Assembly (NCBI GenBank): GCA_043771635.1 | Contig: JAYVHA010000007.1 | Span: 2,233-66,232 of the forward strand | Direction of reading: 5' to 3' | Length of the DNA: 64,000 bases | Source: Candidatus Woesearchaeota archaeon | Lineage (GTDB): Archaea; Nanobdellota; Nanobdellia; Woesearchaeales; SKIA01 | Shown: positions 3,632 through 63,095 of the stretch, in pieces | How positions within the stretch are numbered: the stretch's first letter is position 1 | Layout: the number at the start of each line of letters is the position of its first letter | Notes under the pieces: generated by a model | The model's input: only the letters and a program-made list of their open reading frames with translations | Database searches by the model: none | Told to the model about the DNA's origin: nothing | Translations under genes and position numbers: made by a program

Positions 3632-5102
<1,471 letters not shown>

Positions 5103-39851: not shown

Positions 39852-41603
39852 ATGAAACTAGTAGGGTTAAAACTAGCCTACATTAAGTCTTTTAAAACTC
39901 TGGATTGGAATATAGCCCGAACTAAGGTAATAATTGGTCAAAATGATCATGGCAAGTCCTCAATTCTTAAGATACTAAATTTTGTTCTGAACGAGATTAC
40001 CGACTATCATCTGGATCAAGGATTTTTGGAGCCTGCACTAGCAGAAAAACTAATTCCTGCATTTAGTACGAGCGCTCGCGCCAGGCGCATAACATTAATT
40101 GTGCAAGAAAAAAGCAAATATAAAGAACTGTATATTGATATTGGACGCAATTACTCCATAAAAGTTCATGATAAAATAACGCGGGGCGCTAAAACTACTC
40201 CTGCAGGCAAGAAGCTATTCACAAAGATACGTAGTAAAAATAGGTTTGAACTGGTACCAGCGATAAGAGACGTATCGTCAGAGATATATAAGCAGCTTTT
40301 TTCTACAACGCTACAGCAACACGGACTTTCAAAACTAAAACCCAAAGCCGCGGGTGGAACACAGAGAGAATACAGAGAACTACTAGCTATTAGAAATAGC
40401 ATCGATGAAATTATCCAGCCGTATGTACATAAACGATTGCTGCCCAAGTTAAGTGACGAATTTGGTTTCACGCCACAGCACGAACTTCTTCTAACATTCA
40501 ATAAGGATACAGAGGCAATTGCCGAATGGATTCAAAGCAACCTACAACTTGGTTTCAAATTAGGCAAGGAAGCAGAAGAATATATTTCAATTGATGAAGC
40601 GGGAACAGGAATACAAAGTGCCTTGCTCCTTGCGCTCATAAGATTAAAAAATAGAAGTGAAGCTGACAAGAATGTTCATTTTTTTCTTGCCATCGAAGAA
40701 CCGGAGACATTTCTACATCCACAAAAACAAAAAGAGCTTTACTCTAGCATCAAGGGATTGGAGTCTGATAACCTAACCATAATTATCACGACGCACAGCC
40801 CATACATTGTTTCTGAATCTAAATTTTCTAGCTTAGGGATAGTTCGCAAAGACGACAAGTTCTCAAACCTCCACACTGTGAAGAGCGTGCCACCAAAAGA
40901 TATGGACATATTTGACAGCTATAGTGGTGAAGTAAATTCACAATTGTTTTTTGCGGATAAAGTCATACTCGTAGAAGGAGAAAGCGATAAAAGAGTTATA
41001 GAAACAATTTTACACCGCAAATTTGGAGCCAAGTCATTTAGGTATACAGTAATTTCGGCGGCAGGCAACAGAAATTTTTCGCCATATCTAAAAATGATCA
41101 ACTGTTGGAAAGAATTGAAGATTCCTCATCTAGTTGTTACTGATTTTGATTCATTAACGGCGGGTAGCGATAGAGCCATGAATACTGGCGCAAAGGCCGC
41201 AGGATATTTGCTAAATGCTGAGCAACTGTTAAATCAAAACGTAGACGACGCGATTCAAAAAGATGAAGGCGAGTATAGAAAAATAGCCATTCAAGCAGCC
41301 AATTTCTATGCTCGTTCAGGATTAGAAGTATTCATTTGGACTTGTGACTTGGAGTATGCACTAATTTCGGATAGCAAAATAGACCCAATAGTTCGGGAAT
41401 TAAGTGCAGCGAACAATTCAAGCTATTCAGGCTACACTTGCGCTCAACTGCGTACATTAATCGGAAGCAAAGGCATCCCTCTAAACAGCGGATCAGATGC
41501 ATTAAAGAAACCGTACATACATCAAAAATTGTCGTGGCATTTAGACCTGGATGACACTGAAAGTGATGTATATCGTCTGATTCAAGCAATAAATAAGTTA
41601 TGA
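39852..41603 (+). CDS. OLD-family nuclease: N-terminal ABC-type ATPase + C-terminal Toprim
   Basis: Walker A GQNDHGKSSILK. Walker B/H-loop FLAIEEPETFLHP. Toprim ILVEGESDKRVIE and HLVVTDFDSL. Confidence 0.75.
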   Translation: MKLVGLKLAYIKSFKTLDWNIARTKVIIGQNDHGKSSILKILNFVLNEITDYHLDQGFLEPALAEKLIPAFSTSARARRITLIVQEKSKYKELYIDIGRNYSIKVHDKITRGAKTTPAGKKLFTKIRSKNRFELVPAIRDVSSEIYKQLFSTTLQQHGLSKLKPKAAGGTQREYRELLAIRNSIDEIIQPYVHKRLLPKLSDEFGFTPQHELLLTFNKDTEAIAEWIQSNLQLGFKLGKEAEEYISIDEAGTGIQSALLLALIRLKNRSEADKNVHFFLAIEEPETFLHPQKQKELYSSIKGLESDNLTIIITTHSPYIVSESKFSSLGIVRKDDKFSNLHTVKSVPPKDMDIFDSYSGEVNSQLFFADKVILVEGESDKRVIETILHRKFGAKSFRYTVISAAGNRNFSPYLKMINCWKELKIPHLVVTDFDSLTAGSDRAMNTGAKAAGYLLNAEQLLNQNVDDAIQKDEGEYRKIAIQAANFYARSGLEVFIWTCDLEYALISDSKIDPIVRELSAANNSSYSGYTCAQLRTLIGSKGIPLNSGSDALKKPYIHQKLSWHLDLDDTESDVYRLIQAINKL

Positions 41604-42045: not shown

Positions 42046-45000
42046 TTGGGTGGGCAGATAATCTGCCAAAGAGTGATAGAAGCAACAAGAAAAAACGTAC
42101 TACTCTTTATTGCATTAGTTGCACTTTTTTCTTGCGTATTTTCAGTGCGGGCTGCGGAATATAGTACTGCTACAGCTTTTCCGACAATTCCAGGCTTAGG
42201 ATTGAATACAGGTGTTGTTGCGGCTGCAGATCAGAACACTGGTGCTTTCGCATATAGTTACCAGTTTACAGTCCCTGAAGGTCCTGGCGGTTTAAAACCT
42301 GAGGTAGTACTGTCATATAATTCTCAGGCTGCTCGTGAACAGCGAGGAAACCAAGCAGCTGGCTGGGTTCTTAATAACGAGTATATTGACCGATTCCAAA
42401 ACTATACTCCATACATACTAACGGATGACGAATTCTACTTAGTATCTGGAAACGGGCGTGAGAAACTCATGTACAATGGATCTGGGACTAATAGATGGCA
42501 TACTCAGCACGAGACATTTACTTACATACAGAACTTAACATCAACTTCCAACAACTTTGGGATGTACTGGTCGATAAAGTATCCTGATGGTACAACAAAA
42601 CGTTATGGAGAATCTAGTAGTGAAGAATATGAAACCACTTACGGTGTAATGGCGAAACGCTATCATCTCGACCAGACAAATGACACATATGGCAATAAAC
42701 TACAGTTCCACTATCAACCAGCTGGAGTATTCACCTTAGACTACATAACTTATGGCGGTTCTACCCCAAGAACAGTTCAATTCGTGTATGAACCAAGACA
42801 ATATCCTAGGACCACTTACTATAATGGCTTTGAAGAACAATACACAGCTAGGCTTGCTGGAGTACAAACTACATACGGCGGAACACAAGTAAGATACTAC
42901 GATTTGAACTACTCAGTATCTGATTATTTGGAGCTATTACAATCAATAACTGAGTTATCAGCAACGAATAGCACATCATTACCAGCTACCACATTTAGCT
43001 ACTACTCAGCAACCGGGTGGATCAATCTAACCAGTCCATGGAGTCTTAACCCGCTATACTTCTTTGAATTCGAAGATGGTAAGGATTCAGGCGCCAGGGT
43101 AATTGACATAACTGGAGATGGCTTAGCTGACTACATACGACAAGTAATGTGCAATTCAAGCGCCTATAATAATACGCCTAACGTAAGTACAGCATATATG
43201 CGACAATTCCCTGGCGCAAGCAAAATAACTGTAACGGCGCAAGCATATGGAAATAGTTCTAACATGCAAAACTATGCCGTATCAGCAGGATTTCCACTAA
43301 CTGCAGCTCACAACCTTACGCAATCAGGCATTCTCAGCATCACTAATCAAGAGTATGGTCTTTACATAACTCCGAATAGAAACATATCGCTTCACCGCGT
43401 CAATGGTGATGGAATAGGTGCACCTTTCGAAATTGAGGTATTCAATGTATCATCAAGGATAGAAATCGCATCAGCTATAGGATCGAATGGCTATGCACAA
43501 TTTGACTCAGGCGTAAATTTATTCGCGCACCAGCGATATAGAGTGAGCTTTAAAGGAGCATCGCAAACGTATAGATATGGATCAGGTACAGGAGAGACTG
43601 TCAATTCAACATATCTTGCTATTGAGTGCGGCTACAGATATAATGATCCAAATGAAGGGTACTGCTATTCAATAGCATCATTCTCTATAGAGGAGCTATT
43701 TGAAAACAGCACCACTACAGGTTCCACTACCCTGAATCTAAACAACGGCGTGTACAATGGCAGGATACTTGCGGAAAACCACACGACAAAAACCTTTACG
43801 CTCACAGTTAACGGAACAGGTACGCAGCATGTATCAGATGTAGTTACCTCAAACGACTACTGTGCACCTGTACTGATAAACAACGGAAGCGGATACAACC
43901 TAGACGATGGCACTTGGAGAGTACCTACAAACTACTCGTTCGTGGACAATGGCACTGATTTAGGCACAAGATTTGCAGACATAAATGGAGATGGCCGCGT
44001 TGATCTCGTGCGAAGCGACTGCACCGCCGGAAAAACATTCAACGGAGTGATGCTAAACAATGGAGCTGGCTGGACTGCAACAAACTGGACTGTTCCAGCG
44101 GGTTACTGCATCATAGATGCCGGTTACAACGCAGGAACAGAACTTCTTGACGTAAACGCAGACGGAAGAGCAGATCTAGTAAACGGACGCGATCAAGCGC
44201 CGCTTATACTAAAAACAGCACTAAACACAGGATCTGGCTGGTCTAACTCAACTCAATTTACTCCACCAGTAGCCACAATGACCTACCTTGGAGGAGACGA
44301 CAGTGTGCGATACGTTGATATGAATGGAGATAATCTCGTGGATGTTCTTCAGCAATGCGGAGCTACAGCTTGCAGATCCTCTTACTTGAATAATGGTTCT
44401 GGCTGGAAATCAACGCAGGTATGGTGGACGCCTACCACGTACGCGTTTACTAACGGAATAACTGACGAGGGACTGCGACTAGTGGATCTTAACGGAGACG
44501 GGCTAACCGACATATTGAGGAGAAAGAATTGCACCTCCATTAACTGCTATGGAGTGCTGTTCAACAATGGAAGTGGCTGGATACAAGATACTTCAACATT
44601 ATGGATACCAAACAATACAATGGCGTTTACCATCGGTGAAAAAAACAAAATAATTCGACTAACAGACATAGATGGAGACGGAGCAGTAGATCTTGTTAAA
44701 CGAGATTTGTGTACAACCGCGGACTGTAATACTACACTGCGAAGCTTAGGAGCTAATAACAACCTGCTGCAATCAATAAAGTACAGCACCGGCGGAAACG
44801 TGACCGTTACGTACAACTACTCTGCTCGCAAAAAGAACCTCGGAACAGACAATATCGCAGACATGCCCTACTCTCTACCCGTGGTCGAAACGATAACGCA
44901 GGCAAATGGTATTAGCGGGGCGTCCCAAAGACAAGAAACGACAGGTTACAACTATTCGGGTGCCGTTTACGCAAGAAACGCTTGGACAAGTGAGTTCCGA

Positions 45001-47106
45001 GGATTCGCCACCACAAACCAAACTATAGGTAGAAAAAGAATCTCGACAAACTGGTTCCAATCAACAGGTCTCGAAGGCCGAATTAAGTATCGCGAAACAC
45101 ACGACGGCAGCACAAGGCTCAGAAACGAATCAAGCGACACATTTGTGCACAACTCATCCTATATTTACAAAGCGGTAACGCTGGGCGTTACAACAGCCCA
45201 ATACGATGGAAACTCAACACCTTGGACGACAATAACGAACTTTACGTACGACCAGTACGGAAACGCCCTCACGGAATACTCGCAAGGCGACACAGCAATA
45301 ACTGGTGATGAGCGTCTAAAGAATAAAACTTACACTGCGAACACCGCATTATGGATCATTAATACAGTCAATAAAGAGCAGCTACTGGCTGCAAATAACG
45401 TAACAATTCTGCGGCAAACTAACTACAGCCGAAACACACAAGGATCAGTCAGCGGAGAAGAAAAATTCCTATCTGGAGGAACGAACACGTACAAGAACTA
45501 CACGTACGATGCGTACGGCAACATAAACAGAACAGCAGACGAAAGAGGATACGTAACAGCACAAACGTACGACTCATCCGGAACATTCCCCCTGACAACG
45601 CTTAATGCCCTCGGACAGTACACATACAGAACCTGGAACTCATCGCTTGGCACCTTAATTAGCGAAAACGACAGTAACAACTACTCGACAAACCACATGT
45701 ACGACGCATTCGCAAGAAAACTAACAACAACAAAACCGTACGACACAACAGCATCACCAACAGTATCGCACAGCTATTCATTTGACGGAGTAAGCCCCGA
45801 ATCAATTACAACTACGACAAAGATAAACGCAACAACAAACGCAGTAACAATCCAGTACCTGGACGGCCTAGGAAAAGTAGTACAAACCAAACAACTAGCA
45901 GAAGATGCACTGTACGCAGTACAAGACTTCACGTACGACACTCAAGCACGACTAAACCAAACAACAAACCCATACTACTCAAACAACAGCAGCTACGCAC
46001 ACCCCATACTAACCAACGGTTACTCGGGAATAACATACGACGCACAAGACAGACCAACACAACTAAGGTACGCAGATAGTAGGACAAAAAACACAACCTA
46101 CGCCAAGAACGTCACAACCAGTTATGATGAAAACGCGGAAAGAACAGACACGGTAAAAGATGCATACGCAAATACTATACGGATACTAGAGTACTTGAAC
46201 GGAACTGCATACGCGACTTCGTACACGTATGACGCAGTAAGCCAGCTACTAACAATTGAAGATGCACAAGGCAACGACATAACGTTCAGCTACGACACGT
46301 TTGGCCGAAAGACCTCACTTGTCGATCCTGACCTCGGAACTTGGAACTACACCTACGATGCTGCAGGTAACTTAGTTTCTCAACGTGACGGCCGCGGCGT
46401 GACAGTATCCCTCTCGTACGACGCACTGAACAGGGTAACTCGCAAAAACGGAACATCAAGCGCAATGGACTTCACATACGATACCATCGCAAAAGGAACA
46501 TTGGCAAAAGTGGCTCTGACAAGCGCGAACAAGACATTCGCGTACGACCAACGTTTACGACGCACGCAAGAGAACTTGAGCATAGACGGAATAACATTCA
46601 GCACGAATTATAGCTACGACAGTGCAGACCACCTCATCCAGAAGAATATGACGAATGGGACTAGCATTAGATATACGTATAACGCTTTTAACAAACCTGA
46701 GAGTATTACAGGGATAATTAATGACTTTGATTATGTTGCTGTAGGCCAGCCAAGCGGCCGCGCGTATAACAATACACTCACAACAAACCTGACTTACGAC
46801 ACGAATAGCTTGCGTCTTAGCCGCATATATACGGGCACGAAGCAAAACATGAGTTATAGTTACGATGCTGTTGGAAACATATTGTTAATTACAGATGTCG
46901 CAAATAACGCGTCAGAAACATACACGTACGACGACTTAAACAGAATTAGCACGGCGAACAGAATAGTAAACGGAACAACACAATTTAGTGCAGCATACAC
47001 AGTAAGCCCAATTAACGTAATTACGAAGATAGTCACAAATAGTTGGACTAAGACTTTCAGCTTCGGATCTGCGCCAGTGCATGCTCCAAGCGAGGCAGCA
47101 GAGTGA
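42046..47106 (+). CDS. TcB-like RHS/YD-repeat protein: SpvB-N domain, FG-GAP-like beta-propeller, long YD-repeat shell (no RHS core)
   Basis: Signal-like NVLLFIALVALFSCVFSVRA. SpvB-like PGLGLNTG..YSYQFTVPEGPGGLKPEVVLSYNS..AGWVL. Repeats DINGDGRVDLV, VDLNGDGLTDIL, TDIDGDGAVDLV with NNGSGW. Dozens of YD repeats (YTYDAAGNLVSQRDGRG, YDALNRVTRK). Start codon uncertain (TTG/GTG). Confidence 0.85.
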   Translation: MGGQIICQRVIEATRKNVLLFIALVALFSCVFSVRAAEYSTATAFPTIPGLGLNTGVVAAADQNTGAFAYSYQFTVPEGPGGLKPEVVLSYNSQAAREQRGNQAAGWVLNNEYIDRFQNYTPYILTDDEFYLVSGNGREKLMYNGSGTNRWHTQHETFTYIQNLTSTSNNFGMYWSIKYPDGTTKRYGESSSEEYETTYGVMAKRYHLDQTNDTYGNKLQFHYQPAGVFTLDYITYGGSTPRTVQFVYEPRQYPRTTYYNGFEEQYTARLAGVQTTYGGTQVRYYDLNYSVSDYLELLQSITELSATNSTSLPATTFSYYSATGWINLTSPWSLNPLYFFEFEDGKDSGARVIDITGDGLADYIRQVMCNSSAYNNTPNVSTAYMRQFPGASKITVTAQAYGNSSNMQNYAVSAGFPLTAAHNLTQSGILSITNQEYGLYITPNRNISLHRVNGDGIGAPFEIEVFNVSSRIEIASAIGSNGYAQFDSGVNLFAHQRYRVSFKGASQTYRYGSGTGETVNSTYLAIECGYRYNDPNEGYCYSIASFSIEELFENSTTTGSTTLNLNNGVYNGRILAENHTTKTFTLTVNGTGTQHVSDVVTSNDYCAPVLINNGSGYNLDDGTWRVPTNYSFVDNGTDLGTRFADINGDGRVDLVRSDCTAGKTFNGVMLNNGAGWTATNWTVPAGYCIIDAGYNAGTELLDVNADGRADLVNGRDQAPLILKTALNTGSGWSNSTQFTPPVATMTYLGGDDSVRYVDMNGDNLVDVLQQCGATACRSSYLNNGSGWKSTQVWWTPTTYAFTNGITDEGLRLVDLNGDGLTDILRRKNCTSINCYGVLFNNGSGWIQDTSTLWIPNNTMAFTIGEKNKIIRLTDIDGDGAVDLVKRDLCTTADCNTTLRSLGANNNLLQSIKYSTGGNVTVTYNYSARKKNLGTDNIADMPYSLPVVETITQANGISGASQRQETTGYNYSGAVYARNAWTSEFRGFATTNQTIGRKRISTNWFQSTGLEGRIKYRETHDGSTRLRNESSDTFVHNSSYIYKAVTLGVTTAQYDGNSTPWTTITNFTYDQYGNALTEYSQGDTAITGDERLKNKTYTANTALWIINTVNKEQLLAANNVTILRQTNYSRNTQGSVSGEEKFLSGGTNTYKNYTYDAYGNINRTADERGYVTAQTYDSSGTFPLTTLNALGQYTYRTWNSSLGTLISENDSNNYSTNHMYDAFARKLTTTKPYDTTASPTVSHSYSFDGVSPESITTTTKINATTNAVTIQYLDGLGKVVQTKQLAEDALYAVQDFTYDTQARLNQTTNPYYSNNSSYAHPILTNGYSGITYDAQDRPTQLRYADSRTKNTTYAKNVTTSYDENAERTDTVKDAYANTIRILEYLNGTAYATSYTYDAVSQLLTIEDAQGNDITFSYDTFGRKTSLVDPDLGTWNYTYDAAGNLVSQRDGRGVTVSLSYDALNRVTRKNGTSSAMDFTYDTIAKGTLAKVALTSANKTFAYDQRLRRTQENLSIDGITFSTNYSYDSADHLIQKNMTNGTSIRYTYNAFNKPESITGIINDFDYVAVGQPSGRAYNNTLTTNLTYDTNSLRLSRIYTGTKQNMSYSYDAVGNILLITDVANNASETYTYDDLNRISTANRIVNGTTQFSAAYTVSPINVITKIVTNSWTKTFSFGSAPVHAPSEAAE

Positions 47107-50100
47107 ATCGAATGTTCCTTGCTGTCATGTTCGTTGCATTAGCATTAGCAATTCCTTCGGCATTAGCTGATAACATCACTAATGAAACGAACAACTCAAT
47201 TCCAATACTATTACCGAACGGCACGATCAACACAACAGCCCCAGTAATTATACTCGTGCCAACAGAGAATGTAGTAGAACAGCCTGCTGTAACAATATCA
47301 GAACCAAACCCTAAGCCTGCCGATGAGCCACAAGTAATTGAGGCTCTAGAACTTGTTGTAGCTCCTACTGAACCTCGTGACGCGCCCACACGCGACCCAG
47401 CAACAGTAGACGCACCCATACCTTATTGCGGACATAAGTCATGCGCAAAGGAGATTCTGACTACTGTGCGTGTTTCTGAAACAGCGTTTGGACGGCAGGA
47501 GATACTACAGCTAGAAAAAGATCCAAATTACCCGTGTACCATCGAAGAAGGCGGATTTGTAGTATGCGAGCCAATAACTCCTCAAGGAGAAGCAGCATTA
47601 AGGGCTGCATACGACCTCTCCGAAGGAATTCCCACTACAGACTACCGCCAGCCAGTTTACGAAGGATATTCAAGCCAACTGAGTACAGGCATCGTACGCG
47701 GAGTGAGAATTGGTTCTTACAAACGATCCACGATCAACCCTACCGTCCGGCAAAGATTCGAAATTAACGCTTCCGAACCTGGCGTATTCGTCGTAGGATT
47801 CGCCTCAAACGTCTTTGTCGTGTCAGACTTTAATTACGGTACGTGCGAGAACTGCTCAATTGGCACAACACAAGTAACACTTGAAAACTACCACTCGACA
47901 GACGCAGCACAAGCGCTTTCATGGCGTTTCTCAGGAAACGGACTAGACAGCTCAGGAAACGCAAACACAGCAACATTCGGCGGAGCAGCATACGTAAACA
48001 ACACATTTGCTGATGGTTTCGCGTTTAATGATGCCAATAAACTATCAGCTCCAGATGCCGCTAGCCTTGATATTTCAAACATGACGTTGTCTTTCTGGGT
48101 TCGGTTTAAATCCCTAACAGAAAACCAAACACTGATTTACCGCTACACATCAACAAACGGGTACTTATGCGAATTCGCTAAATACGACACAACAGGAATT
48201 CAATGCTACACAAGAAACTCAACAGCAGGAGGTGCTGCATGGGTACAGACAGGAGGAGCTAGCGAGACACAAAACCCTGACTATGAAATAAACAAATGGT
48301 ACCACATAGTACTAACCTATAACCTAAGCTCAGGAAACCTAAGCATATACCAAGACGGAACACTAAAGCACTCAAAAATTGCAACAAACCACAGCATGTC
48401 GTCAACAGCTTCATTCAAATGGGGAGCGGACTACTTCGACGCGTTCAACGGAACTGTAGACGAAATAAACCTCTACAGCAGAACATTCTCAGCAACAGAA
48501 GTAACATCCCTGTACAACTCGGGCTTATACCTAGTAAACCCATCATACGGAAACTACACAAGCATGATTGACCTCGGCCAATCATCGACTGTTTCAAGTG
48601 TGTCTTGGACTGGAAGTGGAAACCTAACAATAGCAGCAAGAACCGGAGACTATGCAAAACCAGGATTAACAGATACTGGACTATTCGGGTACTGGCCACT
48701 AAACCAATCACTGCTTTGTAAGGATGCGAACAGCCGTTATAACGGAACAGCATCATCAGGAGTAATCTGTGGAAACGTATCAGGACCATTCGTGCTAGAA
48801 AACGCAACATGGTTTGACAGCGACACCGACAAAATAACTCTACCACTCGCGACAAACTTCACCAACTGGTCTGTGCAAGTATGGGTGCGAAGCGATGGCA
48901 CATGTGTCGACGGACAAAACATATTCGCAAAAGGATGGGACTACCGAATATACACAACAAGCTCTTGCGGCATAACCATAGTATCAGCGAACAGCAGTGG
49001 CTCAAACAAATCAATGTCGTCCGTATGCTCAATATCCGACGGCCGATGGCACTCACTAGCATACGTATACAACGACACAGCAAAGACCGCGTACGCGTAC
49101 TGCGACGGAGTACAAAAGTCTAGCGTGACTCAGCAAGGCACAGCAACCTCATCAACTAACTTCACAATCGGCGGAGGAACTTCCGGCTTGACCTTCAGAG
49201 GATCCGTAGCGCAAGTATCATTATGGAATAAGACACTAGCACCAGCAGACCTAGTAGCATGGAACACGTGGAGCAGCACGCTCACATCAGGAAACGACCC
49301 AGGACTAACAGACGGCAGGTATGTACAATATTCAGCAATACTGCGCACGAACGATACTCGCAATACTTCGATGCTGACTAGCGTAAGCGTAGGCACAAGC
49401 AGTTCTTGCTCACTTTCAAACGGAGGTTACAACGTAACCCTAATGAACGGCGCATCAACAGGAAGCGGATACGCAACACTAGATGGAACTGATGATAGAA
49501 TAGATACTGACCTAAATGTTAGTTCTGTACTTAATAACGGAAGCTTCACACTTGCCATGTGGGTGAAAAGTGATGTCGACAGTGGGCAGCGAGCATTCTG
49601 GAGCGCGGACAGTAGCGGAACAGATAGATTCTATTTACGACAGAGCGATATAAGCTCAAACCAAGTAGTGCTCGGCGCCAGTAGCTGGAATCCGGTGTTG
49701 ACAGGTTATGGTGCTTTGAGTAACTGGACACATTACGTCCTGATTATTAACGGAACTAGTGGCCTATTCTACCGTAACGGGTTGAACGTTGCTAACACAA
49801 CAGGAATAACAAAGAACTATCCAGGAAAATACTTACGATTCGGCGCTAACGGCGATACACTAGCAGAAACACACGACGGAAACATAGACGGGATAAACCT
49901 ATACAACCGAGCACTAACATTAACAGAAGTTAGCCAGCTGTACACAAACATAACTGTAACAACCGGTCAAATACTTAGCATAGAATTCAATACCTGCAGC
50001 GCAACAACGAGTTTAACATACGACCCTAACGGAAACATGGTTTACGACGGTACGTATACCTACGAGTATGATTCATTCAATAGGTTGACCAAAATCTGGC

Positions 50101-51218
50101 TTGGTTTAGCGAATACTACCAACGTGTCAGCGTACTTGTATGACGACGAAGGAATTAGAATCAGAAAAATAGAATACAACACCACATCAGGTGCCATTCT
50201 TTCTAGAACATATTACCCTGACGATGACTTTGTACGCGTTTACAACGCAAGCAATCAAACCACTGACGAGGTTTACTATCGTGTCGACGGAACATTGCTC
50301 GCACAAATGAAAGGGAACAACTTGACCTTTATTCATACTAACCATTTGGGAACGCCTGACCTCGTCACGAGCACAACCGGTAGCACGATCGAGACGACAA
50401 AACTCGACCCTTACGGAAACGACATAACAGGGGGGAACAGTCGCTATGTTTTTACTGGCCATGAACGTGATACAGAAACTGGGCTAGATTACATGAAGGC
50501 AAGGCACTATAGTCCAGACCTCGCGATGTTTGTACAACCGGATAGTTTACTAGAAGATATATACTCTCCGCAAAAATTGAATAGATATGCGTATGTTTCA
50601 AACAGGCCGACGATTTATACAGATCCGACCGGGCAGTACAGTTGTGATGCAACGGGAGGATGCATTAGTTTCTGTGTGGGGTTCATATGTCCAATAATGA
50701 ATGCAGTTCCAGATGAAGGAGACAATCCTGACGTAGGTTTATACAACGGCAAAAATGTTCGTTTTGCTAACCAGGAACAAAATGCCTTTATGAGTGCTGT
50801 TATTTCGTTAACAACTATGGGAGGAGTTAGATCGTTTGGATTAGCCTCTAGTACTAAAGTTACCGGCAATAATGCTGTGAATTACGCAGATCTTCCTGAG
50901 GATGTCCAAAACACCCTGGCCAAAGTCAAATCCGGAGAAAAGTTACCCTATGCCAAGGATGGAACAATATATCAAAATAGAAACGAAGCTCTTCCAAAAC
51001 AAGCCGCTAATTATTACCGCGAGTATACAGTCCAAGCAGACCCTGCAAAAGGTAGAGGGACCAATAGGTTGGTAGTTGGAAATAATGGAGAGACTTACTA
51101 CACAACAAACCATTATGGCTCATTCAAAAGGGTCACCTCTGAGCCTGACCGCACTAATTTTAATCAAGCGTATAAAATGCTACAGAGAGCAGTAAATAGA
51201 ATTGGAGGCAATAAATGA
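47103..51218 (+). CDS. secreted LamG x3 - RHS-repeat - RHS core - barnase-family RNase toxin (polymorphic toxin)
   Basis: Signal MFLAVMFVALALAIPSALA. Three ConA/LamG-like domains. YD repeats. RHS core RYVFTGHERDTETGLDYMKARHYSPDLAMFVQPDS..YVSNRPTIYTDPTGQ. C-terminus GTIYQNRNEALPKQ..YREYTVQ..GRGTNRLVV..YYTTNHYGSFKRV aligns to barnase (GDIFSNREGKLPG..WREADI..RNSDRILY..YKTTDHYQTFTKI). Confidence 0.85.
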   Translation: MNRMFLAVMFVALALAIPSALADNITNETNNSIPILLPNGTINTTAPVIILVPTENVVEQPAVTISEPNPKPADEPQVIEALELVVAPTEPRDAPTRDPATVDAPIPYCGHKSCAKEILTTVRVSETAFGRQEILQLEKDPNYPCTIEEGGFVVCEPITPQGEAALRAAYDLSEGIPTTDYRQPVYEGYSSQLSTGIVRGVRIGSYKRSTINPTVRQRFEINASEPGVFVVGFASNVFVVSDFNYGTCENCSIGTTQVTLENYHSTDAAQALSWRFSGNGLDSSGNANTATFGGAAYVNNTFADGFAFNDANKLSAPDAASLDISNMTLSFWVRFKSLTENQTLIYRYTSTNGYLCEFAKYDTTGIQCYTRNSTAGGAAWVQTGGASETQNPDYEINKWYHIVLTYNLSSGNLSIYQDGTLKHSKIATNHSMSSTASFKWGADYFDAFNGTVDEINLYSRTFSATEVTSLYNSGLYLVNPSYGNYTSMIDLGQSSTVSSVSWTGSGNLTIAARTGDYAKPGLTDTGLFGYWPLNQSLLCKDANSRYNGTASSGVICGNVSGPFVLENATWFDSDTDKITLPLATNFTNWSVQVWVRSDGTCVDGQNIFAKGWDYRIYTTSSCGITIVSANSSGSNKSMSSVCSISDGRWHSLAYVYNDTAKTAYAYCDGVQKSSVTQQGTATSSTNFTIGGGTSGLTFRGSVAQVSLWNKTLAPADLVAWNTWSSTLTSGNDPGLTDGRYVQYSAILRTNDTRNTSMLTSVSVGTSSSCSLSNGGYNVTLMNGASTGSGYATLDGTDDRIDTDLNVSSVLNNGSFTLAMWVKSDVDSGQRAFWSADSSGTDRFYLRQSDISSNQVVLGASSWNPVLTGYGALSNWTHYVLIINGTSGLFYRNGLNVANTTGITKNYPGKYLRFGANGDTLAETHDGNIDGINLYNRALTLTEVSQLYTNITVTTGQILSIEFNTCSATTSLTYDPNGNMVYDGTYTYEYDSFNRLTKIWLGLANTTNVSAYLYDDEGIRIRKIEYNTTSGAILSRTYYPDDDFVRVYNASNQTTDEVYYRVDGTLLAQMKGNNLTFIHTNHLGTPDLVTSTTGSTIETTKLDPYGNDITGGNSRYVFTGHERDTETGLDYMKARHYSPDLAMFVQPDSLLEDIYSPQKLNRYAYVSNRPTIYTDPTGQYSCDATGGCISFCVGFICPIMNAVPDEGDNPDVGLYNGKNVRFANQEQNAFMSAVISLTTMGGVRSFGLASSTKVTGNNAVNYADLPEDVQNTLAKVKSGEKLPYAKDGTIYQNRNEALPKQAANYYREYTVQADPAKGRGTNRLVVGNNGETYYTTNHYGSFKRVTSEPDRTNFNQAYKMLQRAVNRIGGNK
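48495..50530 (+). repeat. ~2-kb direct repeat copy 1 (inside main RHS gene), partner at 51609-53650
   Basis: acagaagtaacatccctgtacaactcgggcttatacctagtaaacccatcatacgg.. recurs at 51609 with ~95% identity. Identity decays after the conserved RHS core. Confidence 0.85.
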
Positions 51219-51541
51219 CAAAGGAAAAAACACTGACTAAGAATTTGAACGCAGACATCCTTGTTAATTTGTCCAATGTGGCAAGTAAAAAAAAAGTGTT
51301 CGAGATATTTAGTTCAGAACTATTTTTTCCAGAGTATTTCGGACACAACTGGGATGCGCTATATGACTGCTTAACAGACCTTGTTTGGCTTCCAAAAGTT
51401 AAAACAACTATTACAGTCTGTCTTCCAAAAAGGCTTTCTAACAATGATAAACTCGTTTTAGTAAGATTGCTTCAGGATGTAGACGCCTACTGGGAGCAGG
51501 AAAAGAGACATATTAGGGTCAAAATTGGTAATAACAATTAG
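51215..51541 (+). CDS. barstar-family immunity protein
   Basis: ELFFPEYFGHNWDALYDCLTDLVWLP versus barstar [26 protein letters not shown]. ATGA overlap with the toxin stop. Confidence 0.8.
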   Translation: MTKEKTLTKNLNADILVNLSNVASKKKVFEIFSSELFFPEYFGHNWDALYDCLTDLVWLPKVKTTITVCLPKRLSNNDKLVLVRLLQDVDAYWEQEKRHIRVKIGNNN

Positions 51542-54269
51542 GTCATTAAATTCTGTATTAGAAGCCTGCATAGAGGGAGTTGCACAGTACAATCGCACTA
51601 GATCTATGACAGAAGTAACATCCCTATACAACTCAGGCTTATACCTAGTAAACCCATCATACGGAAACTACACAAGCATGATAGACCTCGGCCAATCATC
51701 GACTGTTTCAAGTGTGTCTTGGACAGGCAGCGGAAACCTAACAATAGCAGCAAGAACCGGAGACTACGCAAAACCAGGATTAACCGATACAGGACTATTC
51801 GGGTACTGGCCACTAAACCAAACACTGCTTTGTAAGGATGCGAACAGCCGTTATAACGGCACAAATTCAAGTGGGGTCATATACGGCAATGTTACAGGCC
51901 CATTTGTTCTAGAGAACGCAACGTGGTTTGACAGTGACACTGACAAAATAACTCTACCACTCGCGACAAACTTCACAAACTGGTCTGTGCAAGTATGGGT
52001 AAGAAGCGATGGCACATGTGTCGACGGACAAAACATATTCGCAAAAGGATGGGACTACAGAATATACACAACAGGTTCGTGTGGCATAACCATGGTATCA
52101 GCAAACAGTAGCGGATCAAACAAAACAATGGCATCAGTGTGCTCAATTTCAGACGGCCGATGGCACTCACTTGCATACGTATACAACGACACAGCAAAGA
52201 CCGCGTACGCGTACTGCGACGGAGTACAAAAGTCTAGCGTTACTCAGCAAGGCACAGCAACCTCATCAACTAACTTCACAATCGGCGGAGGAACATCCGG
52301 ACTAACCTTCAGAGGATCAGTTGCGCAAGTATCGTTATGGAACAAGACACTAGCACCGGCAGATCTAGTAGCATGGAACACGTGGAGCAGCACACTAACA
52401 TCAGGAAACGACCCTTTACTTTCTGACGGAAGATATGTGCAATACAGCGCAATACTGCGCACGAACGACACTCGCAATACTTCGATGCTGACCAGCGTAA
52501 GCGTAGGAACAAGCAGCTCCTGCTCACTATCAAACGGAGGATACAACGTAACCCTAATGAACGGCGCATCAACAGGAAACGGCTACGCAACACTAGACGG
52601 CGTTGACGACCGCATATCAACAGACATGAATGTTAGTTCCGCTCTTAGCAACGGAAGCTTCACGATATCTATGTGGGCAAAAAGCGACGCAGACGCTGGC
52701 CAACGAACGTTCTGGAGCGCAGACACAAACGGCTCCGATAGATTCTACTTCCGTCAATCAGACGTAAGTTTAAACCAAGTTGTACTGGGCATGAGCAGTT
52801 GGAATACAGTATTGACAGGCTACGGGGCTTTGAGTAACTGGACGCACTATGTGCTAGTAATTAGCGGCACGAGCGGAACGTTGTATCGCAATGGCGTAAA
52901 TATCGCAAACATGAGCGGCATAACAAAGAACTATCCTGGAAAATACTTACAACTAGGAGCAAACGCTGAATGGTACGCAGAAACGATGGACGGGAACATG
53001 GATCGAGTTGCAATATACACTCGCGCATTAAACAACACAGAAGTAGCTCAACTATACGCAAATACGAGCGTGAGCAGCGGACGCATATTCAACTTAGATT
53101 TCGACCCTTGCAACGGCAGCACTAGCCTAACATACGATGCCAACGGAAACATGGTTTACGACGGTACGTTCACTTACGAATATGATTCATTCAATAGATT
53201 GACCAAAATCTGGCTTGGATTAGCAAATACTACCAACGTGTCGGCGCACTTGTATGACGACGAAGGAATTAGAATCAGAAAAATAGAATACAACACCACA
53301 TCAGGCGCCGTTCTTTCTAGAACATACTACCCAGACGATGACTTTGTACGCGTTTACAACGCGAGCAATCAAACCACAGACGAAGTTTACTATCGTGTCG
53401 ACGGAACATTACTTGCTCAAATGAGAGGCAACAACCTAACGTACATCCATCCAAACCATCTAGGTACACCTGATTTGGTGACAAACAGTTCTGGAGGAAC
53501 CGTAGAGGTCACAAAACTGGACCCCTACGGAAATGACATAACTGGTGGAAATGGCAGATATGCTTTCACTGGCCATGAACGAGACACAGAAACTGGGCTA
53601 GATTACATGAAGGCAAGGCACTATAGCGCAGATCTTGCGATGTTCGTGCAGCCAGATTCGATTAAAGAGAATGTGTACGATCCACAAACACTAAATCCAT
53701 ACGGCTACGTTAGAAATAATCCGACTAACAAAGTTGACCCGACCGGCATGTTTAGCTCTCAACTCCTCGGACTAGGAGTCTTTATGGCAAGTGCTAATAC
53801 TGGTGCTGCGCTATACGGAGGTCCGTTCGGAATTGGTTTTGCAGCAATAGAAGGCCCAATAACCATTTCAGTTATTGCGACTTCATTCATTATTGATGAA
53901 GATGAGACTGATGAGTATGCTCGTGCTTTTGCTGCAGGTTCGATTTCGGCAGAATTCTTGGTCACTGCCAAGGACATATATAATACGGGATCTGTTTCAG
54001 GAGTGCCATTCACAGGACCAGCAGGCCAAGCGTTATACGGCACATATGGCAATAATAGACGGCAGACCTTCCTGAAAGAAGCACAAGCACGCCAGGACTC
54101 TCAACGAGACAAATCTATCGAGAGGGAGTACAAAGGCAAATCCATGAGTACTCCTAGTGGCAAGGAGGCAAAAATAGATAAAGTGCTGCGAGGTAATAGT
54201 GGTAAGATCTGGGTTATTAGTGAACCCTATAAAAAAAATTCTAATGGCAGTAGTAGGGACAAGAAATGA
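51525..54269 (+). CDS. orphan RHS C-terminal cassette (LamG x2 - YD repeats - RHS core - alternative C-terminal toxin CT2); may lack an authentic start
   Basis: From nt 51609 it is ~95% identical to 48495 onward of the main gene. RHS core RYAFTGHERDTETGLDYMKARHYSADLAMFVQPDS..NPTNKVDPTGMF. Divergent tail with Gly-rich hydrophobic segment GLGVFMASANTGAALYGGPFGIGFAAIEGPITISVIATSFII. Confidence 0.6.
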   Translation: MVITIRSLNSVLEACIEGVAQYNRTRSMTEVTSLYNSGLYLVNPSYGNYTSMIDLGQSSTVSSVSWTGSGNLTIAARTGDYAKPGLTDTGLFGYWPLNQTLLCKDANSRYNGTNSSGVIYGNVTGPFVLENATWFDSDTDKITLPLATNFTNWSVQVWVRSDGTCVDGQNIFAKGWDYRIYTTGSCGITMVSANSSGSNKTMASVCSISDGRWHSLAYVYNDTAKTAYAYCDGVQKSSVTQQGTATSSTNFTIGGGTSGLTFRGSVAQVSLWNKTLAPADLVAWNTWSSTLTSGNDPLLSDGRYVQYSAILRTNDTRNTSMLTSVSVGTSSSCSLSNGGYNVTLMNGASTGNGYATLDGVDDRISTDMNVSSALSNGSFTISMWAKSDADAGQRTFWSADTNGSDRFYFRQSDVSLNQVVLGMSSWNTVLTGYGALSNWTHYVLVISGTSGTLYRNGVNIANMSGITKNYPGKYLQLGANAEWYAETMDGNMDRVAIYTRALNNTEVAQLYANTSVSSGRIFNLDFDPCNGSTSLTYDANGNMVYDGTFTYEYDSFNRLTKIWLGLANTTNVSAHLYDDEGIRIRKIEYNTTSGAVLSRTYYPDDDFVRVYNASNQTTDEVYYRVDGTLLAQMRGNNLTYIHPNHLGTPDLVTNSSGGTVEVTKLDPYGNDITGGNGRYAFTGHERDTETGLDYMKARHYSADLAMFVQPDSIKENVYDPQTLNPYGYVRNNPTNKVDPTGMFSSQLLGLGVFMASANTGAALYGGPFGIGFAAIEGPITISVIATSFIIDEDETDEYARAFAAGSISAEFLVTAKDIYNTGSVSGVPFTGPAGQALYGTYGNNRRQTFLKEAQARQDSQRDKSIEREYKGKSMSTPSGKEAKIDKVLRGNSGKIWVISEPYKKNSNGSSRDKK
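51609..53650 (+). repeat. ~2-kb direct repeat copy 2 (orphan RHS cassette)
   Basis: See copy 1. Confidence 0.85.
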
Positions 54270-54556
54270 ATTCAAAGCAATTTCCCGTGCGTGTGCGACC
54301 AACTCAGTTAATTGCCGGGGCAGTATTCTTTTTCGGCTTTTTGGGACTATTGTTTGCCTTCAAGTATCTGCCACTCCAATCGGCTATCGGATTGACAATG
54401 GTCTACGTAGTGATATTTGCTTTGGTTGTGGCTAACATCAAGAAGTTAATTTTATACGTTGAAAGCGGACTTCTTTATAGACTTCTGGTTTGGTTATTGA
54501 GCCTAATCTTCTTTATACTCTTCATCTTGCAAGTTATTAAGTTACTTTCTAATTAA
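54266..54556 (+). CDS. small 3-TM membrane protein, candidate immunity protein for orphan toxin CT2
   Basis: ATGA overlap with the orphan cassette stop. 96 aa, three hydrophobic helices. Confidence 0.5.
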   Translation: MNSKQFPVRVRPTQLIAGAVFFFGFLGLLFAFKYLPLQSAIGLTMVYVVIFALVVANIKKLILYVESGLLYRLLVWLLSLIFFILFILQVIKLLSN

Positions 54557-61638: not shown

Positions 61639-61964
61639 GCGACCAAGTACTGGATAACATAAGGAGCTATCCAGATCACCCCTAGGCCAACAATAACATA
61701 GCCAGCCATCTTCTTAGCCTGAGAACGCGCAGCCTGATCATCACCACTAGTGATAAAAGTAACACCAGCAAAGACCAAGAACAAAACCGCAATTACGGAA
61801 GCAGCGTACTTAATGAAATTATAGACCTTCATAACAGGCGACAAAATCAAATCGAAAGTAGCCTGATCCTGCGCACTAATAACCTGATTATAATCAACAG
61901 CAAAAGCAGCAGGCAACAAAACAAATAATACAGCCAAAATACCATACAATAACTTCTTCATCAT
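61635..61964 (-). CDS. VirB2/TrbC-like pilin candidate (signal peptide + two TM helices)
   Basis: 109 aa. MMKKLLYGILAVLFVLLPAAFA signal, then two hydrophobic helices. Strong SD AAGGAGGTGG before ATG. ATGA overlap with the downstream gene. Confidence 0.5.
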   Translation of the reverse strand: MMKKLLYGILAVLFVLLPAAFAVDYNQVISAQDQATFDLILSPVMKVYNFIKYAASVIAVLFLVFAGVTFITSGDDQAARSQAKKMAGYVIVGLGVIWIAPYVIQYLVA

Positions 61965-62426
61965 TCCACCTCCTTAAGCTCCATATGAGCTATGGCATCC
62001 AAAAGCCGCAAATATGCCTCGACAGAACCATACTTCCAAGTCAGAAAAGCAGCACAAGAAAAGCAAAAAGCAACATCAGAACCAGCAAGCCGTCCACCAC
62101 ACAAAGCACATTCAGCTACAAACACCATACAAACCTAAGAATTGCGATGACTAAAGTAAGGAACTCAGAGAATGTATAACAAAGCCGGCACTTATCTAGA
62201 GCTAACTCGCTGCCAACGGCGACTGCATTTTTTACATGTATAATCTGTTCGAAAATCCGTTACAGCAACAGGTCTAGATTCTGTTCGAACAACAGACCAG
62301 TTAGAATGCCGCGACTATGTTCAAATCATAACCATTCTAACTCGGAGAATGTAATACGCATGACTGTAACATACCTGTCGCATACCCGACAAGCTTTAAT
62401 TCGCATAACACTTTTAGGTTAATGTC

Positions 62427-62882
62427 ATGCTGTCCACACTCGAAAAAGAAGTTAACGCAGAACTAAGCAGAACCGATGAGAACTTTCGGCAGTTGGACAA
62501 CAAGATATCGCAAATAACAGCAGTAAACACGGGTTTAATCGTATTATTTACGAGCATAATCAAGCTTAACGAGTTGGAGGGTCTTGCTACCGTCGGCTTC
62601 TCGATAGGAATCTTGGGGTATATAGCGTCTTTGATAGTGTTGATTGTAGCTTACACTCCACGATCGTCCGAGGCAATAGACACTTTCAAACTGCTTGCGA
62701 AATTTGAAAAAAAAGGATTCAAGAGCGAAGATGAACTTAGAAAAGCCATTTTGGGTGGCCTCGCAGAGTCCACCAGTCAAACAAAAAAGCACAGCAGTAA
62801 GAAAAGCAAGCTGCTAACTTGGGGCATTGCTATATGCCTTTCGTCCACAATCTTGCTTAGCATCATACTTACGGTAAAATAA
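62427..62882 (+). CDS. hypothetical membrane protein (151 aa)
   Basis: Two hydrophobic helices. Divergent from the transfer operon. Confidence 0.35.
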   Translation: MLSTLEKEVNAELSRTDENFRQLDNKISQITAVNTGLIVLFTSIIKLNELEGLATVGFSIGILGYIASLIVLIVAYTPRSSEAIDTFKLLAKFEKKGFKSEDELRKAILGGLAESTSQTKKHSSKKSKLLTWGIAICLSSTILLSIILTVK

Positions 62883-63095
62883 TGACGGAAGAACCTAAAC
62901 CAAATAGAAAGCCTCCCTTCTACGACCCTGAGATAATGGGGACAAGAGACGAAACGCTTCAATACAAGTCGAACGATCCTCGTAAGGGCAAAGATTCAAA
63001 ATAATTTTTAACTTCTTTTACACTTTCAAAGCAGAAAGATATGAGCGCAACCTAGAATGTGAAGCATCAGACATTCGTTCAACGTTGGGCGCCCA

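What the first reader, a model, noticed from the sequence alone, without database searches (positions are those of the whole stretch)
47103..51218. Unusual split architecture: TcB-like shell gene overlaps a separate signal-peptide LamG-RHS-core-toxin gene
ORF 42046-47106 has the SpvB domain, the propeller and most YD repeats but ends without an RHS core. The next gene starts in another frame 4 nt before its stop. It encodes a canonical cleavable signal peptide (MFLAVMFVALALAIPSALA / DNITNET), about 450 aa of three LamG domains, only the last few YD repeats, the RHS core and the toxin. This is not the standard TcB/TcC partition, since TcC has neither signal peptide nor LamG domains. It is also not a typical single-chain RHS. 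It may be a WapA-like secreted RHS toxin that completes the shell in trans, or a new lectin-targeted delivery variant.
Basis: inference. Interest (0 to 1): 0.6.

Follow-up and report, generated by a model that had tools for sequence, protein, structure and literature searches.

The report
Two-gene split RHS toxin cocoon, archaeal
An archaeon encodes its RHS toxin container as two separately exported proteins, a large shell and a lectin-bearing piece with the last shell strands, the plug and an RNase toxin; this split recurs widely in small symbiotic archaea and seems undescribed.

Summary
ORF1 (42046-47106) is a TcB-like protein: signal peptide, SpvB, FG-GAP propeller, TcdB_midN and YD shell, with no RHS core. 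ORF2 starts at GTG 47103, overlapping ORF1's TGA by 4 nt. It has a signal peptide, three LamG domains, about 130 aa of YD strands, the RHS core and a barnase-type RNase. Barstar follows, then an orphan cassette (ORF3) with its own small downstream ORF.

The junction is not a frameshift. It is identical in an independent metagenome. Woesearchaeota-type relatives keep the same break with an NTGA overlap and a signal peptide on the second gene. In three loci the order is small gene, immunity gene, big gene. Twenty-five of 27 bacterial homologues are single-chain.

ORF1's end and ORF2 residue ~970 are adjacent positions of one shell, just after the conserved PHA motif. That lies about 450 aa downstream of the TcB|TcC boundary. 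An AlphaFold model of the joined pieces folds as a Tc/Rhs cocoon.

The best reading is a two-subunit, Sec-exported cocoon completed in trans. ORF2 is a rarer "extended" small subunit that carries lectin domains. Trans assembly is inferred, not shown. This is a new variant of a known kind; interest 0.6.

The parts
42046..47106 (+). ORF1, the big subunit (1686 aa; likely start GTG 42073): a TcB-like shell protein without an RHS core
   Evidence: ORF list. Pfam and NCBIfam matches. 33-35% identity to coreless Woesearchaeota proteins.
42073..42156 (+). Predicted signal peptide of ORF1 (MIEATRKNVLLFIALVALFSCVFSVRA|AEY)
   Evidence: Read from the translation. The gene call starts here. No predictor was run.
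42238..42729 (+). SpvB domain
   Evidence: PF03534, E 1.7e-5, 24.6 bits against a cut-off of 22. BLASTP to the SpvB regions of P0009 and P0010.
43141..43845 (+). Insertion of about 230 aa that the relatives lack; no family match
   Evidence: Gap in the BLASTP alignments to P0009-P0016. No Pfam hit.
43951..45024 (+). FG-GAP beta-propeller and TcdB_toxin_midN
   Evidence: PF13517 in 5 stretches and PF12256 at 67 bits. The family profile hits TcdB1 and YenB.
45025..47073 (+). YD-repeat shell wall contributed by ORF1
   Evidence: PF05593 and TIGR01643. PDB Rhs shells matched. High pLDDT in the joined model.
47074..47091 (+). PVHAPS, the conserved 'PHA' motif, 4 residues before the stop
   Evidence: Single-chain consensus RPHAVT..YxYDANGNM. 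Big subunits of L070 and L071 end the same way.
47092..47106 (+). Junction: GAGG, then a 7-nt spacer, then GTGA (ORF2 start overlapping the ORF1 stop)
   Evidence: Sequence. An NTGA overlap is also present in L002, L004, L006 and L064. The junction is identical in sample L063.
47103..51218 (+). ORF2, the extended small subunit (1371 aa)
   Evidence: The exact protein occurs on contigs from NCBI and ENA sources.
47103..47168 (+). Predicted Sec signal peptide (MNRMFLAVMFVALALAIPSALA|DN)
   Evidence: Read from the translation. Small subunits of relatives begin with an equivalent segment. No predictor was run.
47169..48035 (+). Pro/Glu-rich linker and a Cys-containing region of unknown fold
   Evidence: No Pfam match. 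N-glycosylation sequons at 2.6 per 100 aa.
48036..48503 (+). LamG domain 1
   Evidence: PF13385, aa 312-467, 77 bits.
48819..49250 (+). LamG domain 2
   Evidence: PF13385, 61.6 bits. dN/dS 0.07 against ORF3.
49482..49934 (+). LamG domain 3, which differs strongly between ORF2 and ORF3
   Evidence: PF13385, 64 bits. dN 0.21 against ORF3.
50010..50405 (+). Last YD strands of the shell (from SLTYDPNGNM)
   Evidence: Alignment with small subunits. PDB shells matched over their last ~200 aa. pLDDT 83-93 in the joined model.
50406..50636 (+). RHS-associated core (plug and aspartyl autoprotease; conserved D1147 and D1174, DPTG)
   Evidence: TIGR03696, 66.7 bits. Invariant columns in alignment A2.
50853..51134 (+). 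Barnase-family RNase toxin
   Evidence: PF00545, E 2.4e-16. No N-X-S/T sequons.
51215..51541 (+). Barstar immunity gene (ATGA overlap with ORF2)
   Evidence: PF01337, E 9e-22.
51606..54269 (+). ORF3, an orphan cassette with no signal peptide: LamG2, LamG3, YD, core and a different hydrophobic toxin
   Evidence: DNA homology 51609-53657 to 48495-50543. TIGR03696. dN/dS 0.07-0.09.
54266..54556 (+). Putative immunity gene of the orphan cassette (96 aa, 4-nt overlap)
   Evidence: Position only. No family match.

Best explanation
ORF1 and ORF2 are the two subunits of a split RHS (BC-type) toxin cocoon of an archaeon.

Shown:
- The cocoon gene is broken right after the conserved PHA motif, about 200 aa before the end of the shell.
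- ORF1 carries the SpvB domain, the propeller and most of the YD wall. It has no plug.
- ORF2 carries the last YD strands, the autoproteolytic RHS core and a barnase-type RNase.
- Barstar is encoded next.
- The same break is conserved in many archaeal loci.

Inferred:
- Both proteins are exported by Sec through their own signal peptides and are N-glycosylated.
- ORF2's YD strands and core dock onto ORF1 outside the cell, closing the shell around the RNase.
- The core then cuts at DPTG.
- The three LamG domains sit outside the shell at the seam. They either bind glycans on a target cell or hold the complex on the producer's surface.
- ORF3 and its downstream gene are a spare LamG3-toxin-immunity cassette, brought into ORF2 by recombination across about 2 kb of shared sequence.

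How the toxin crosses the target membrane is unknown. No TcA-like partner lies nearby.
For: Domain content.

The pieces are complementary:
- On about 100 single-chain homologues, ORF1 aa 1686 and ORF2 aa 970 project to within -15 to +50 residues of each other in about half, most often 0-10.
- The single-chain consensus reads RPHAVT..YxYDANGNM.

The split is conserved:
- L002/L003, L004, the contig carrying P0011, L006 (Archaeon GW2011_AR15) and L065 all show a coreless big gene followed by a small gene of signal peptide, YD, core and toxin.
- L070, L071 and L073 have the order small, immunity, big. The big subunits of L070 and L071 end right after PAHSP or LHAPS; that of L073 was not read.

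The junction is identical in a second sample.

The small-subunit family is large:
- 655 hits; the best 120 are nearly all 225-458 aa, and the few named ones are mostly Woesearchaeota or Nanoarchaeota.
- 92 of 111 that start with Met have a hydrophobic N-terminus.
- 122 of the 148 nearest cluster representatives are under 560 aa.

Bacterial relatives are single-chain in 25 of 27 loci.

The joined model has pLDDT 80-94 on both sides of the seam. It matches TcdB2-TccC3 (TM 0.70, E 5e-47) and RhsA.

Export is supported by sequon density: 3.7-4.4 N-X-S/T per 100 aa in ORF1 and the LamG region, against 0.2-0.4 in cytoplasmic proteins.

The orphan cassette is under purifying selection, dN/dS 0.07-0.09.
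Against: - No direct evidence of a complex. The model is of an artificial fusion, and pLDDT drops to 53-65 at the seam.
- Signal peptides were judged by eye and by hydrophobicity, not by a predictor.
- One locus (L072) has an extended small subunit with no big gene within 10 kb, so pairing may not be obligatory.
- Known Tc and T6SS-Rhs cocoons enclose their toxin in the cytoplasm. Assembly of two exported chains has no experimental precedent that I know of.
- The window lacks the Cys-rich 212-aa gene and the 412-702-aa accessory gene seen next to most relatives.
- The host lineage of the window is unresolved.
Confidence: 0.65

Rival explanations
1. ORF2 works alone as a secreted lectin-toxin. 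Its short YD-core segment serves only as a self-cleaving release module and does not complete any shell. ORF1 is a separate surface protein, or an adaptor with another role.
For: - L072 has a small subunit of signal peptide, CBM96, YD, core and toxin with no SpvB gene within 10 kb.
- Small-subunit genes often occur in arrays that outnumber big genes.
- Various binding or enzyme domains (subtilase S8, PKD, CBM96, Ig, LamG) are fused in front of the YD-core, as in stand-alone toxins.
Against: - Big subunits in this clade lack their own core and end exactly where the small subunit's shell sequence begins.
- Ten of the 11 loci examined put the two side by side.
- About 130 aa of YD strands cannot enclose a 190-aa toxin. 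The Rhs1 barrel needs about 840 aa (PMC8636562).
- The joined sequence models as a cocoon.
Confidence: 0.2
2. The two ORFs are one gene broken by a sequencing or assembly error or a recent frameshift. The real product would be a single ~3050-aa RHS protein with LamG domains inserted in the shell, and the hydrophobic stretch would be internal.
For: - Bacterial single-chain homologues do carry LamG, DUF2341 or other inserts at this very position (P0012, P0013, P0019, P0021, P0031, P0034).
- Frameshifted big genes occur in related MAGs (L064).
Against: - ORF2's frame is closed by a stop about 17 codons upstream, so only 47052-47106 could hold the error.
- That stretch is identical in an independent sample.
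- The break, the 4-nt overlap and the signal peptide recur in distant relatives.
- The gene order is reversed in three loci.
Confidence: 0.03
3. The locus is decaying. ORF1 would be the remnant of a once complete RHS gene whose 3' end was displaced when a foreign LamG-RHS-toxin gene arrived. The two products would no longer cooperate.
For: - The locus sits beside mobile-element genes: an OLD nuclease upstream and a TraC/VirB4-like cluster downstream.
- ORF3 shows that cassettes do accumulate here.
Against: - A displacement would not leave ORF1 ending 4 residues after the PHA motif, exactly as the intact big subunits of L070 and L071 do.
- It would not create a translationally coupled GTGA junction.
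- ORF1 is an uninterrupted 1686-codon frame.
Confidence: 0.05

Closest known systems
Tc toxin BC subcomplex (TcB-TcC, e.g. TcdB2-TccC3, YenB-YenC2)
   Same: - Two polypeptides build one YD-repeat cocoon.
- The first has SpvB, a beta-propeller and TcdB_midN. The second ends with the RHS core and a variable toxin.
- The joined model's best structural match is TcdB2-TccC3 (TM 0.70).
- The family profile hits TcdB1 and YenB.
   Different: - The break lies about 450 aa further downstream, so the second subunit brings only ~130 aa of wall plus the plug.
- Both subunits have signal peptides.
- The second carries LamG domains.
- No TcA-like gene is among the called genes within about 10 kb.
- The host is an archaeon.
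- An immunity gene follows the toxin.
Single-chain SP-SpvB-propeller-RHS polymorphic toxins (the 'TcdB/TcaC-like export' class of Zhang et al. 2012, PMC3482391)
   Same: - Same domain order and same toxin-immunity logic, including orphan cassettes.
- Homologues at 23-34% identity.
- Some carry LamG or other inserts at the same place, between the PHA motif and the last YD-core module.
   Different: - Those are one polypeptide: 25 of 27 bacterial loci.
- Here the chain is cut at the insert site, and the second piece has its own signal peptide.
WapA-type Sec-exported RHS toxins of Gram-positive bacteria
   Same: A signal peptide, surface-binding domains before the RHS part, and an RNase-type toxin with adjacent immunity. 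This comparison rests on my own knowledge and on PMC8636562.
   Different: WapA is a single chain with a complete shell. It was not compared by sequence here.
T6SS Rhs effectors (RhsA, Rhs1/Tre23, Tse5, RhsP)
   Same: - Same shell and aspartyl-protease plug.
- ORF2 aa 970-1180 aligns to their last ~200 shell residues.
- The D..DPxG catalytic pattern is conserved.
   Different: They have no PAAR, VgrG or chaperone link here. They are cytoplasmic and single-chain. They also cut off an N-terminal plug, which was not looked for here.

Membership tests
RHS/YD-repeat polymorphic toxin | YD/RHS repeats that form the shell wall | tested here: met
   PF05593 and TIGR01643 in ORF1. PDB Rhs shells matched.
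RHS/YD-repeat polymorphic toxin | RHS-associated core (TIGR03696) with conserved Asp residues and a DPxG cleavage motif | tested here: met
   ORF2 aa 1102-1178, 66.7 bits against 32.5. ORF3 666-742. Absent from ORF1. D1147, D1174 and G1177 are invariant in alignment A2.
RHS/YD-repeat polymorphic toxin | Variable C-terminal toxin followed by a cognate immunity gene | tested here: met
   PF00545 RNase, with PF01337 barstar immediately downstream.
RHS/YD-repeat polymorphic toxin | Shell, core and toxin on one polypeptide | tested here: not met
   Stop at 47104-47106 and a new frame. Identical in a second sample.
Tc toxin TcB subunit | SpvB, beta-propeller, TcdB_midN and YD repeats, with no core | tested here: met
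   (TcdB1 E 2e-18, YenB E 6e-17 with the family profile).
Tc toxin TcC subunit | About 680 aa of N-terminal YD shell, then core and hypervariable region; no signal peptide or extra domains | tested here: not met
   ORF2 has ~130 aa of YD before the core, plus a signal peptide and three LamG domains. The TcB|TcC boundary maps inside ORF1.
Tc toxin complex | A TcA translocator encoded with the BC genes | tested here: not met
   No TcA-type Pfam family among the called genes within about 10 kb or among the ten larger window ORFs scanned. The rest of the genome could not be searched.
Archaeal split RHS family (defined here) | Big subunit with no core, ending at or soon after the PHA motif | tested here: met
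   ORF1 ends ..APVHAPSEAAE*. Compare L070 and L071 and L002, L004, L006 and L065, which add a PKD-like tail.
Archaeal split RHS family (defined here) | Small subunit in which the signal peptide is followed directly by YDxxGN (median position aa 32) | tested here: not met
   ORF2 has about 950 aa between the signal peptide and YDPNGN. It fits the minority 'extended' subclass: 21 of 148 nearest representatives, for example P0402 with three LamG domains.
Archaeal split RHS family (defined here) | Big and small subunits physically assemble | not testable with these tools
   Only a model of a fused sequence was possible.
Sec-exported protein | Cleavable N-terminal signal peptide | tested here: inconclusive
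   An n-h-c layout with AxA is read from the sequence, and sequon enrichment supports export. No signal-peptide predictor was available.

The most novel reading that the evidence does not exclude
A cocoon assembled outside the cell from two separately exported chains, with exchangeable plug-toxin subunits ('one shell, many plugs').

- In these archaea the small subunit is a complete gene with its own signal peptide, so several different toxins could load the same big subunit without any recombination.
- In the window's variant, the plug subunit also brings its own lectin module. LamG3 differs between the two cassettes, which would couple target choice to toxin choice.
- This would be a delivery design distinct from Tc, T6SS-Rhs and WapA, used by small symbiotic archaea.
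Probability: 0.35. Interest if true: 0.8.

Novelty: new variant of a known kind. Interest (0 to 1): 0.6.

Why it matters
RHS cocoons are thought to enclose their toxin as the chain folds. In Tc toxins this happens as two cytoplasmic subunits meet. Here the plug and toxin are a separate protein with its own export signal, and the break is kept across many archaeal lineages. If the two parts join after export, three things follow:

- A shell can be closed and loaded in trans outside the cell.
- Toxins, and in this window lectin domains, can be swapped as whole subunits.
- Little-studied archaea with small genomes hold a large, unexplored toxin arsenal.

The system also offers a natural two-piece scaffold for engineering cargo-loaded cocoons.

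Tried and rejected
- **Frameshift or fusion.** Rejected on the frame check, the second sample, the conserved split and the reversed gene order.
- **A three-gene split in L064 (big, PKD, small).** This turned out to be a frameshift inside the big gene, because the 'PKD' ORF starts upstream of the PHA motif.
- **Accessory genes of the relatives.** A search of the window for the 212-aa Cys-rich and 412-702-aa genes found only a weak LamG match.
- **Closer relatives of ORF2.** The word-index search gave 8 hits. The metagenome scan gave only generic core matches.
- **Naming the organism.** The cluster look-up returned no names. The genome scan did not return the window's own genome. Only 'archaeon' is established.
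- **Pfam on ORF2 aa 23-270, the ORF1 insert, the ORF3 toxin and the 96-aa ORF.** Nothing was found.
- **Bacterial-type promoter and terminator scan.** Fewer matches than shuffled controls.
- **Literature.** No paper in the held library describes a split archaeal or DPANN RHS. Makarova et al. 2019 (mBio) on archaeal polymorphic toxins is not held, so prior description cannot be excluded.
Full report
**What is in the window**

ORF1 (42046-47106, + strand, 1686 aa) begins with a signal-peptide-like segment. It matches SpvB, five FG-GAP repeats, TcdB_toxin_midN and YD/RHS repeats. It has no RHS-associated core.

Its stop is TGA at 47104-47106. ORF2 opens in the -1 frame at GTG 47103, giving a GTGA overlap, with GAGG 7 nt upstream. 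An ATG follows at 47112 and is the start used in public gene calls.

ORF2 (1371 aa) reads as follows:
- MNRMFLAVMFVALALAIPSALA|DN at the N-terminus.
- A Pro/Glu-rich linker and a ~170-aa Cys-containing region with no family match.
- Three Laminin_G_3 domains at aa 312-467, 573-716 and 794-944.
- YD strands from SLTYDPNGNM (aa ~970).
- The TIGR03696 core at aa 1102-1178.
- A hydrophobic Cys-rich linker.
- A barnase-family RNase at aa 1251-1344.

The next gene (51215-51541, ATGA overlap) is barstar.

ORF3 (51606-54269) repeats ORF2 from the end of LamG1 to the core: 48495-50543 matches 51609-53657 at 84% nucleotide identity. It has no signal peptide and carries a different, hydrophobic C-terminal domain. 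A 96-aa ORF follows it.

The host is an archaeon. The window holds an archaeal 16S-tRNAAla-23S operon, a TFIIB gene and an archaeal-type AdoMet synthetase.

**Is the split real?**

ORF2's frame is closed about 17 codons upstream of its start. Only a change inside 47052-47106 could fuse the two ORFs.

A contig from a different sample (L063) is 99.92% identical over 22.4 kb. It has 18 differences, none near the junction.

Homologues 33-35% identical to ORF1 show the same layout. They come from other metagenomes and from two named genomes, Archaeon GW2011_AR15 and Woesearchaeota UBA9989. In the loci that extend far enough, a coreless big gene is followed, usually with an ATGA, GTGA or TTGA overlap, by a 396-450-aa gene. 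That gene starts with a signal peptide, for example MKLNGYLRVIVSILVYLMTSLPVIFA|QE. It goes straight into YDxxGNL, then about 200 aa of YD plus core, a variable toxin, and small hydrophobic ORFs in the position of immunity genes. UBA9989 itself (L005) shows only the coreless big gene followed by the two accessory genes before its contig ends.

In three further archaeal loci the order is small gene, immunity gene, big gene. No frameshift can produce that order.

As a control, 25 of 27 bacterial loci with both parts have them in one ORF.

**Where the break lies**

When ORF1 and ORF2 are aligned to about 100 single-chain homologues, ORF1's last residue and ORF2 residue 970 project to within -15 to +50 residues of each other in about half of them. 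The most common offset is 0-10.

The single-chain consensus there reads ...RPHAVTxxGxxxYxYDANGNM.... ORF1 ends ...APVHAPSEAAE*, and ORF2's shell part begins ...SLTYDPNGNM. Nothing is missing and nothing is duplicated.

ORF2 aa 970-1180 equals the last ~200 residues of solved Rhs and teneurin-like shells. This is the final wall strands plus the plug. In Rhs1 the barrel spans residues 420-1262 and the plug 1263-1357 (PMC8636562).

The ORF1-family profile reaches into TcC, matching YenC2 277-430. Whole TcC chains align to about the last 676 columns of the joined model. I therefore infer that the TcB|TcC boundary maps about 450 aa before ORF1's stop. This is a different partition from Tc toxins.

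**The same site takes inserts**

Several bacterial single-chain homologues carry 170-500 aa of extra domains between the PHA motif and the last YD-core module. These include LamG, DUF2341 plus LamG, and others.

In most archaeal relatives the big subunit continues past HAPS into ~470 aa of sequon-rich PKD-like repeats before its stop.

In the window, and in L070 and L071, the big subunit stops right after the motif. The decoration sits instead on the N-terminus of the small subunit: three LamG domains in the window, S8 plus three LamG in L070, and three PKD in L071. L073 has an S8-bearing small subunit of the same kind, but there the big subunit carries a CARDB match and its end was not read.

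**Size of the family**

A profile of the small-subunit N-terminal part found 655 proteins. The best 120 are nearly all 225-458 aa. The few that carry a source name are mostly labelled Woesearchaeota or Nanoarchaeota. Of the 111 that start with Met, 92 have a hydrophobic N-terminus. The consensus is MKxxxYLRxIAxFLxxLVISLPxxFA|EELNLxYDANGNL.

An exhaustive HMMER search with LamG3 plus YD-core gave the same picture. Of the 148 nearest cluster representatives:
- 122 are under 560 aa.
- 21 are 560-1500 aa ('extended'; 12 of them have hydrophobic N-termini).
- 5 are longer than 1500 aa.

ORF2 is thus an uncommon extended member. Its only near copies are in the same organism. P0402 (L070) is the nearest analogue with three LamG domains.

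**Does ORF2 complete ORF1?**

A fusion of ORF1 aa 900-1686 with ORF2 aa 965-1371 was modelled with 15 single-chain homologues as the alignment:
- Mean pLDDT 72, pTM 0.65.
- pLDDT 80-94 on both sides of the seam, dropping to 53-65 at the seam.
- The toxin was not modelled, because the alignment does not cover it.

The best structural matches were TcdB2-TccC3 (E 5e-47, TM 0.70 over the query) and RhsA.

This shows that the two pieces are compatible with one cocoon. It does not show that they assemble as separate chains.

**Export**

N-X-S/T sequons occur at about twice the compositional expectation in ORF1 (3.7 per 100 aa) and in ORF2's LamG region (4.35 per 100 aa). Cytoplasmic proteins of the window have 0.2-0.4 per 100 aa. 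The RNase domain has none, although it is 10.7% Asn (2.6 expected).

This fits surface-exposed, glycosylated carrier parts and a cargo that must stay unmodified. The toxin figure is only suggestive.

**The orphan cassette**

Between ORF2 and ORF3, dN/dS is 0.07 for LamG2 and 0.09 for YD-core, with dS 0.4-0.9. The orphan has therefore been kept under protein-level selection.

LamG3 is far more diverged (dN 0.21).

In sample L063, 17 clustered SNPs in ORF3 all switch to the ORF2 base. This is either gene conversion or mixing by the assembler.

**Weak points**

- One locus (L072) has an extended small subunit with no big gene within 10 kb. Stand-alone function of such proteins cannot be excluded.
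- The window lacks the two accessory secreted genes that flank most relatives.
- No translocator was found.
- The host lineage is unresolved.
- The main review of archaeal polymorphic toxins could not be read.

**Verdict**

This is a member of a widespread, apparently undescribed archaeal family of two-gene, doubly signal-peptide-bearing RHS cocoons. The break is at a site different from TcB/TcC. The window shows the rarer form in which the plug-toxin subunit carries lectin domains.

I file it as a new variant of a known kind, interest 0.6.

Noticed in passing
window 1-5102 (- strand): An archaeal rRNA operon: 23S at 1-3093 (cut by the window edge) with a group I intron at 797-1121, tRNA-Ala(TGC) at 3381-3452, and 16S at 3635-5102. 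The 16S could place the organism, but no reference set was available.
   Followed up: partly
window 52059-52172 and 48965; L063: In an independent sample, 17 clustered SNPs in orphan ORF3 all switch to the base of the ORF2 paralogue. One SNP in ORF2 switches the other way. This is either gene conversion between the cassettes or paralogue mixing by the assembler.
   Followed up: yes
window 49482-49934 compared with 52590-53040: LamG3 is much more diverged between ORF2 and ORF3 (dN 0.21, dS saturated) than LamG2 and the YD-core (dN/dS 0.07-0.09). Each toxin cassette appears to bring its own LamG3 variant.
   Followed up: partly
window 50628-51215: The RNase toxin region of ORF2 has no N-X-S/T sequon despite 10.7% Asn (2.6 expected). 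The rest of ORF1 and ORF2 has about twice the expected number.
   Followed up: yes
window 50637-50700; 53760-53900; L006 13020-13090: Directly after the DPxG cleavage motif, ORF2, ORF3 and several relatives have a hydrophobic, Cys- or Gly-rich stretch (GGCISFCVGFICPIM; LLGLGVFMASANTGAALYGGPFGIGFAAI). It may be a membrane-entry segment for the released toxin.
   Followed up: no
P0136-P0255 (small-subunit family): The signal-peptide-like N-terminus is unusually conserved in sequence across the family (..LVISLPxxFA|EELNL..), more than export alone would need.
   Followed up: no
window 43141-43845: ORF1 carries an insertion of about 230 aa between the SpvB domain and the propeller. The Woesearchaeota relatives lack it, and it has no family match.
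   Followed up: partly
window 56618-63809 and 39852-41603: The RHS locus is flanked by mobile-element-type genes. Upstream is an OLD-family nuclease. Downstream are a NikA-like ORF, a TraC/VirB4-like ATPase (999 aa), a 673-aa ORF, a T4SS-pilin/TrbC-like ORF, PycTM and an N6/N4 DNA methylase.
   Followed up: no
window 9920-15250: A 1776-aa protein combines glucose/sorbosone dehydrogenase, a cytochrome-D1-type propeller, two malectin domains, cupredoxin and PEGA domains.
   Followed up: no
L006 14671-17615 (Archaeon GW2011_AR15): An orphan unit made of a 3' fragment of the big gene (including HAPS and the PKD-like tail) followed by a complete second small-subunit gene with its own signal peptide and a different toxin. 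The split junction is copied along with the cassette.
   Followed up: partly
L072 8985-17122: An archaeal locus with proteins of signal peptide, CBM96, YD, core and toxin, and further YD-core ORFs, but no SpvB-type big gene within 10 kb.
   Followed up: no
L002 7941-9967; L004 6616-8489; L005 12895-14825; L006 5726-7834: Most relatives have two more secreted genes next to the big gene: a 212-aa Cys-rich protein and a 412-702-aa protein (LamG in some) with a conserved Cys-rich C-terminal domain. The window has neither.
   Followed up: partly
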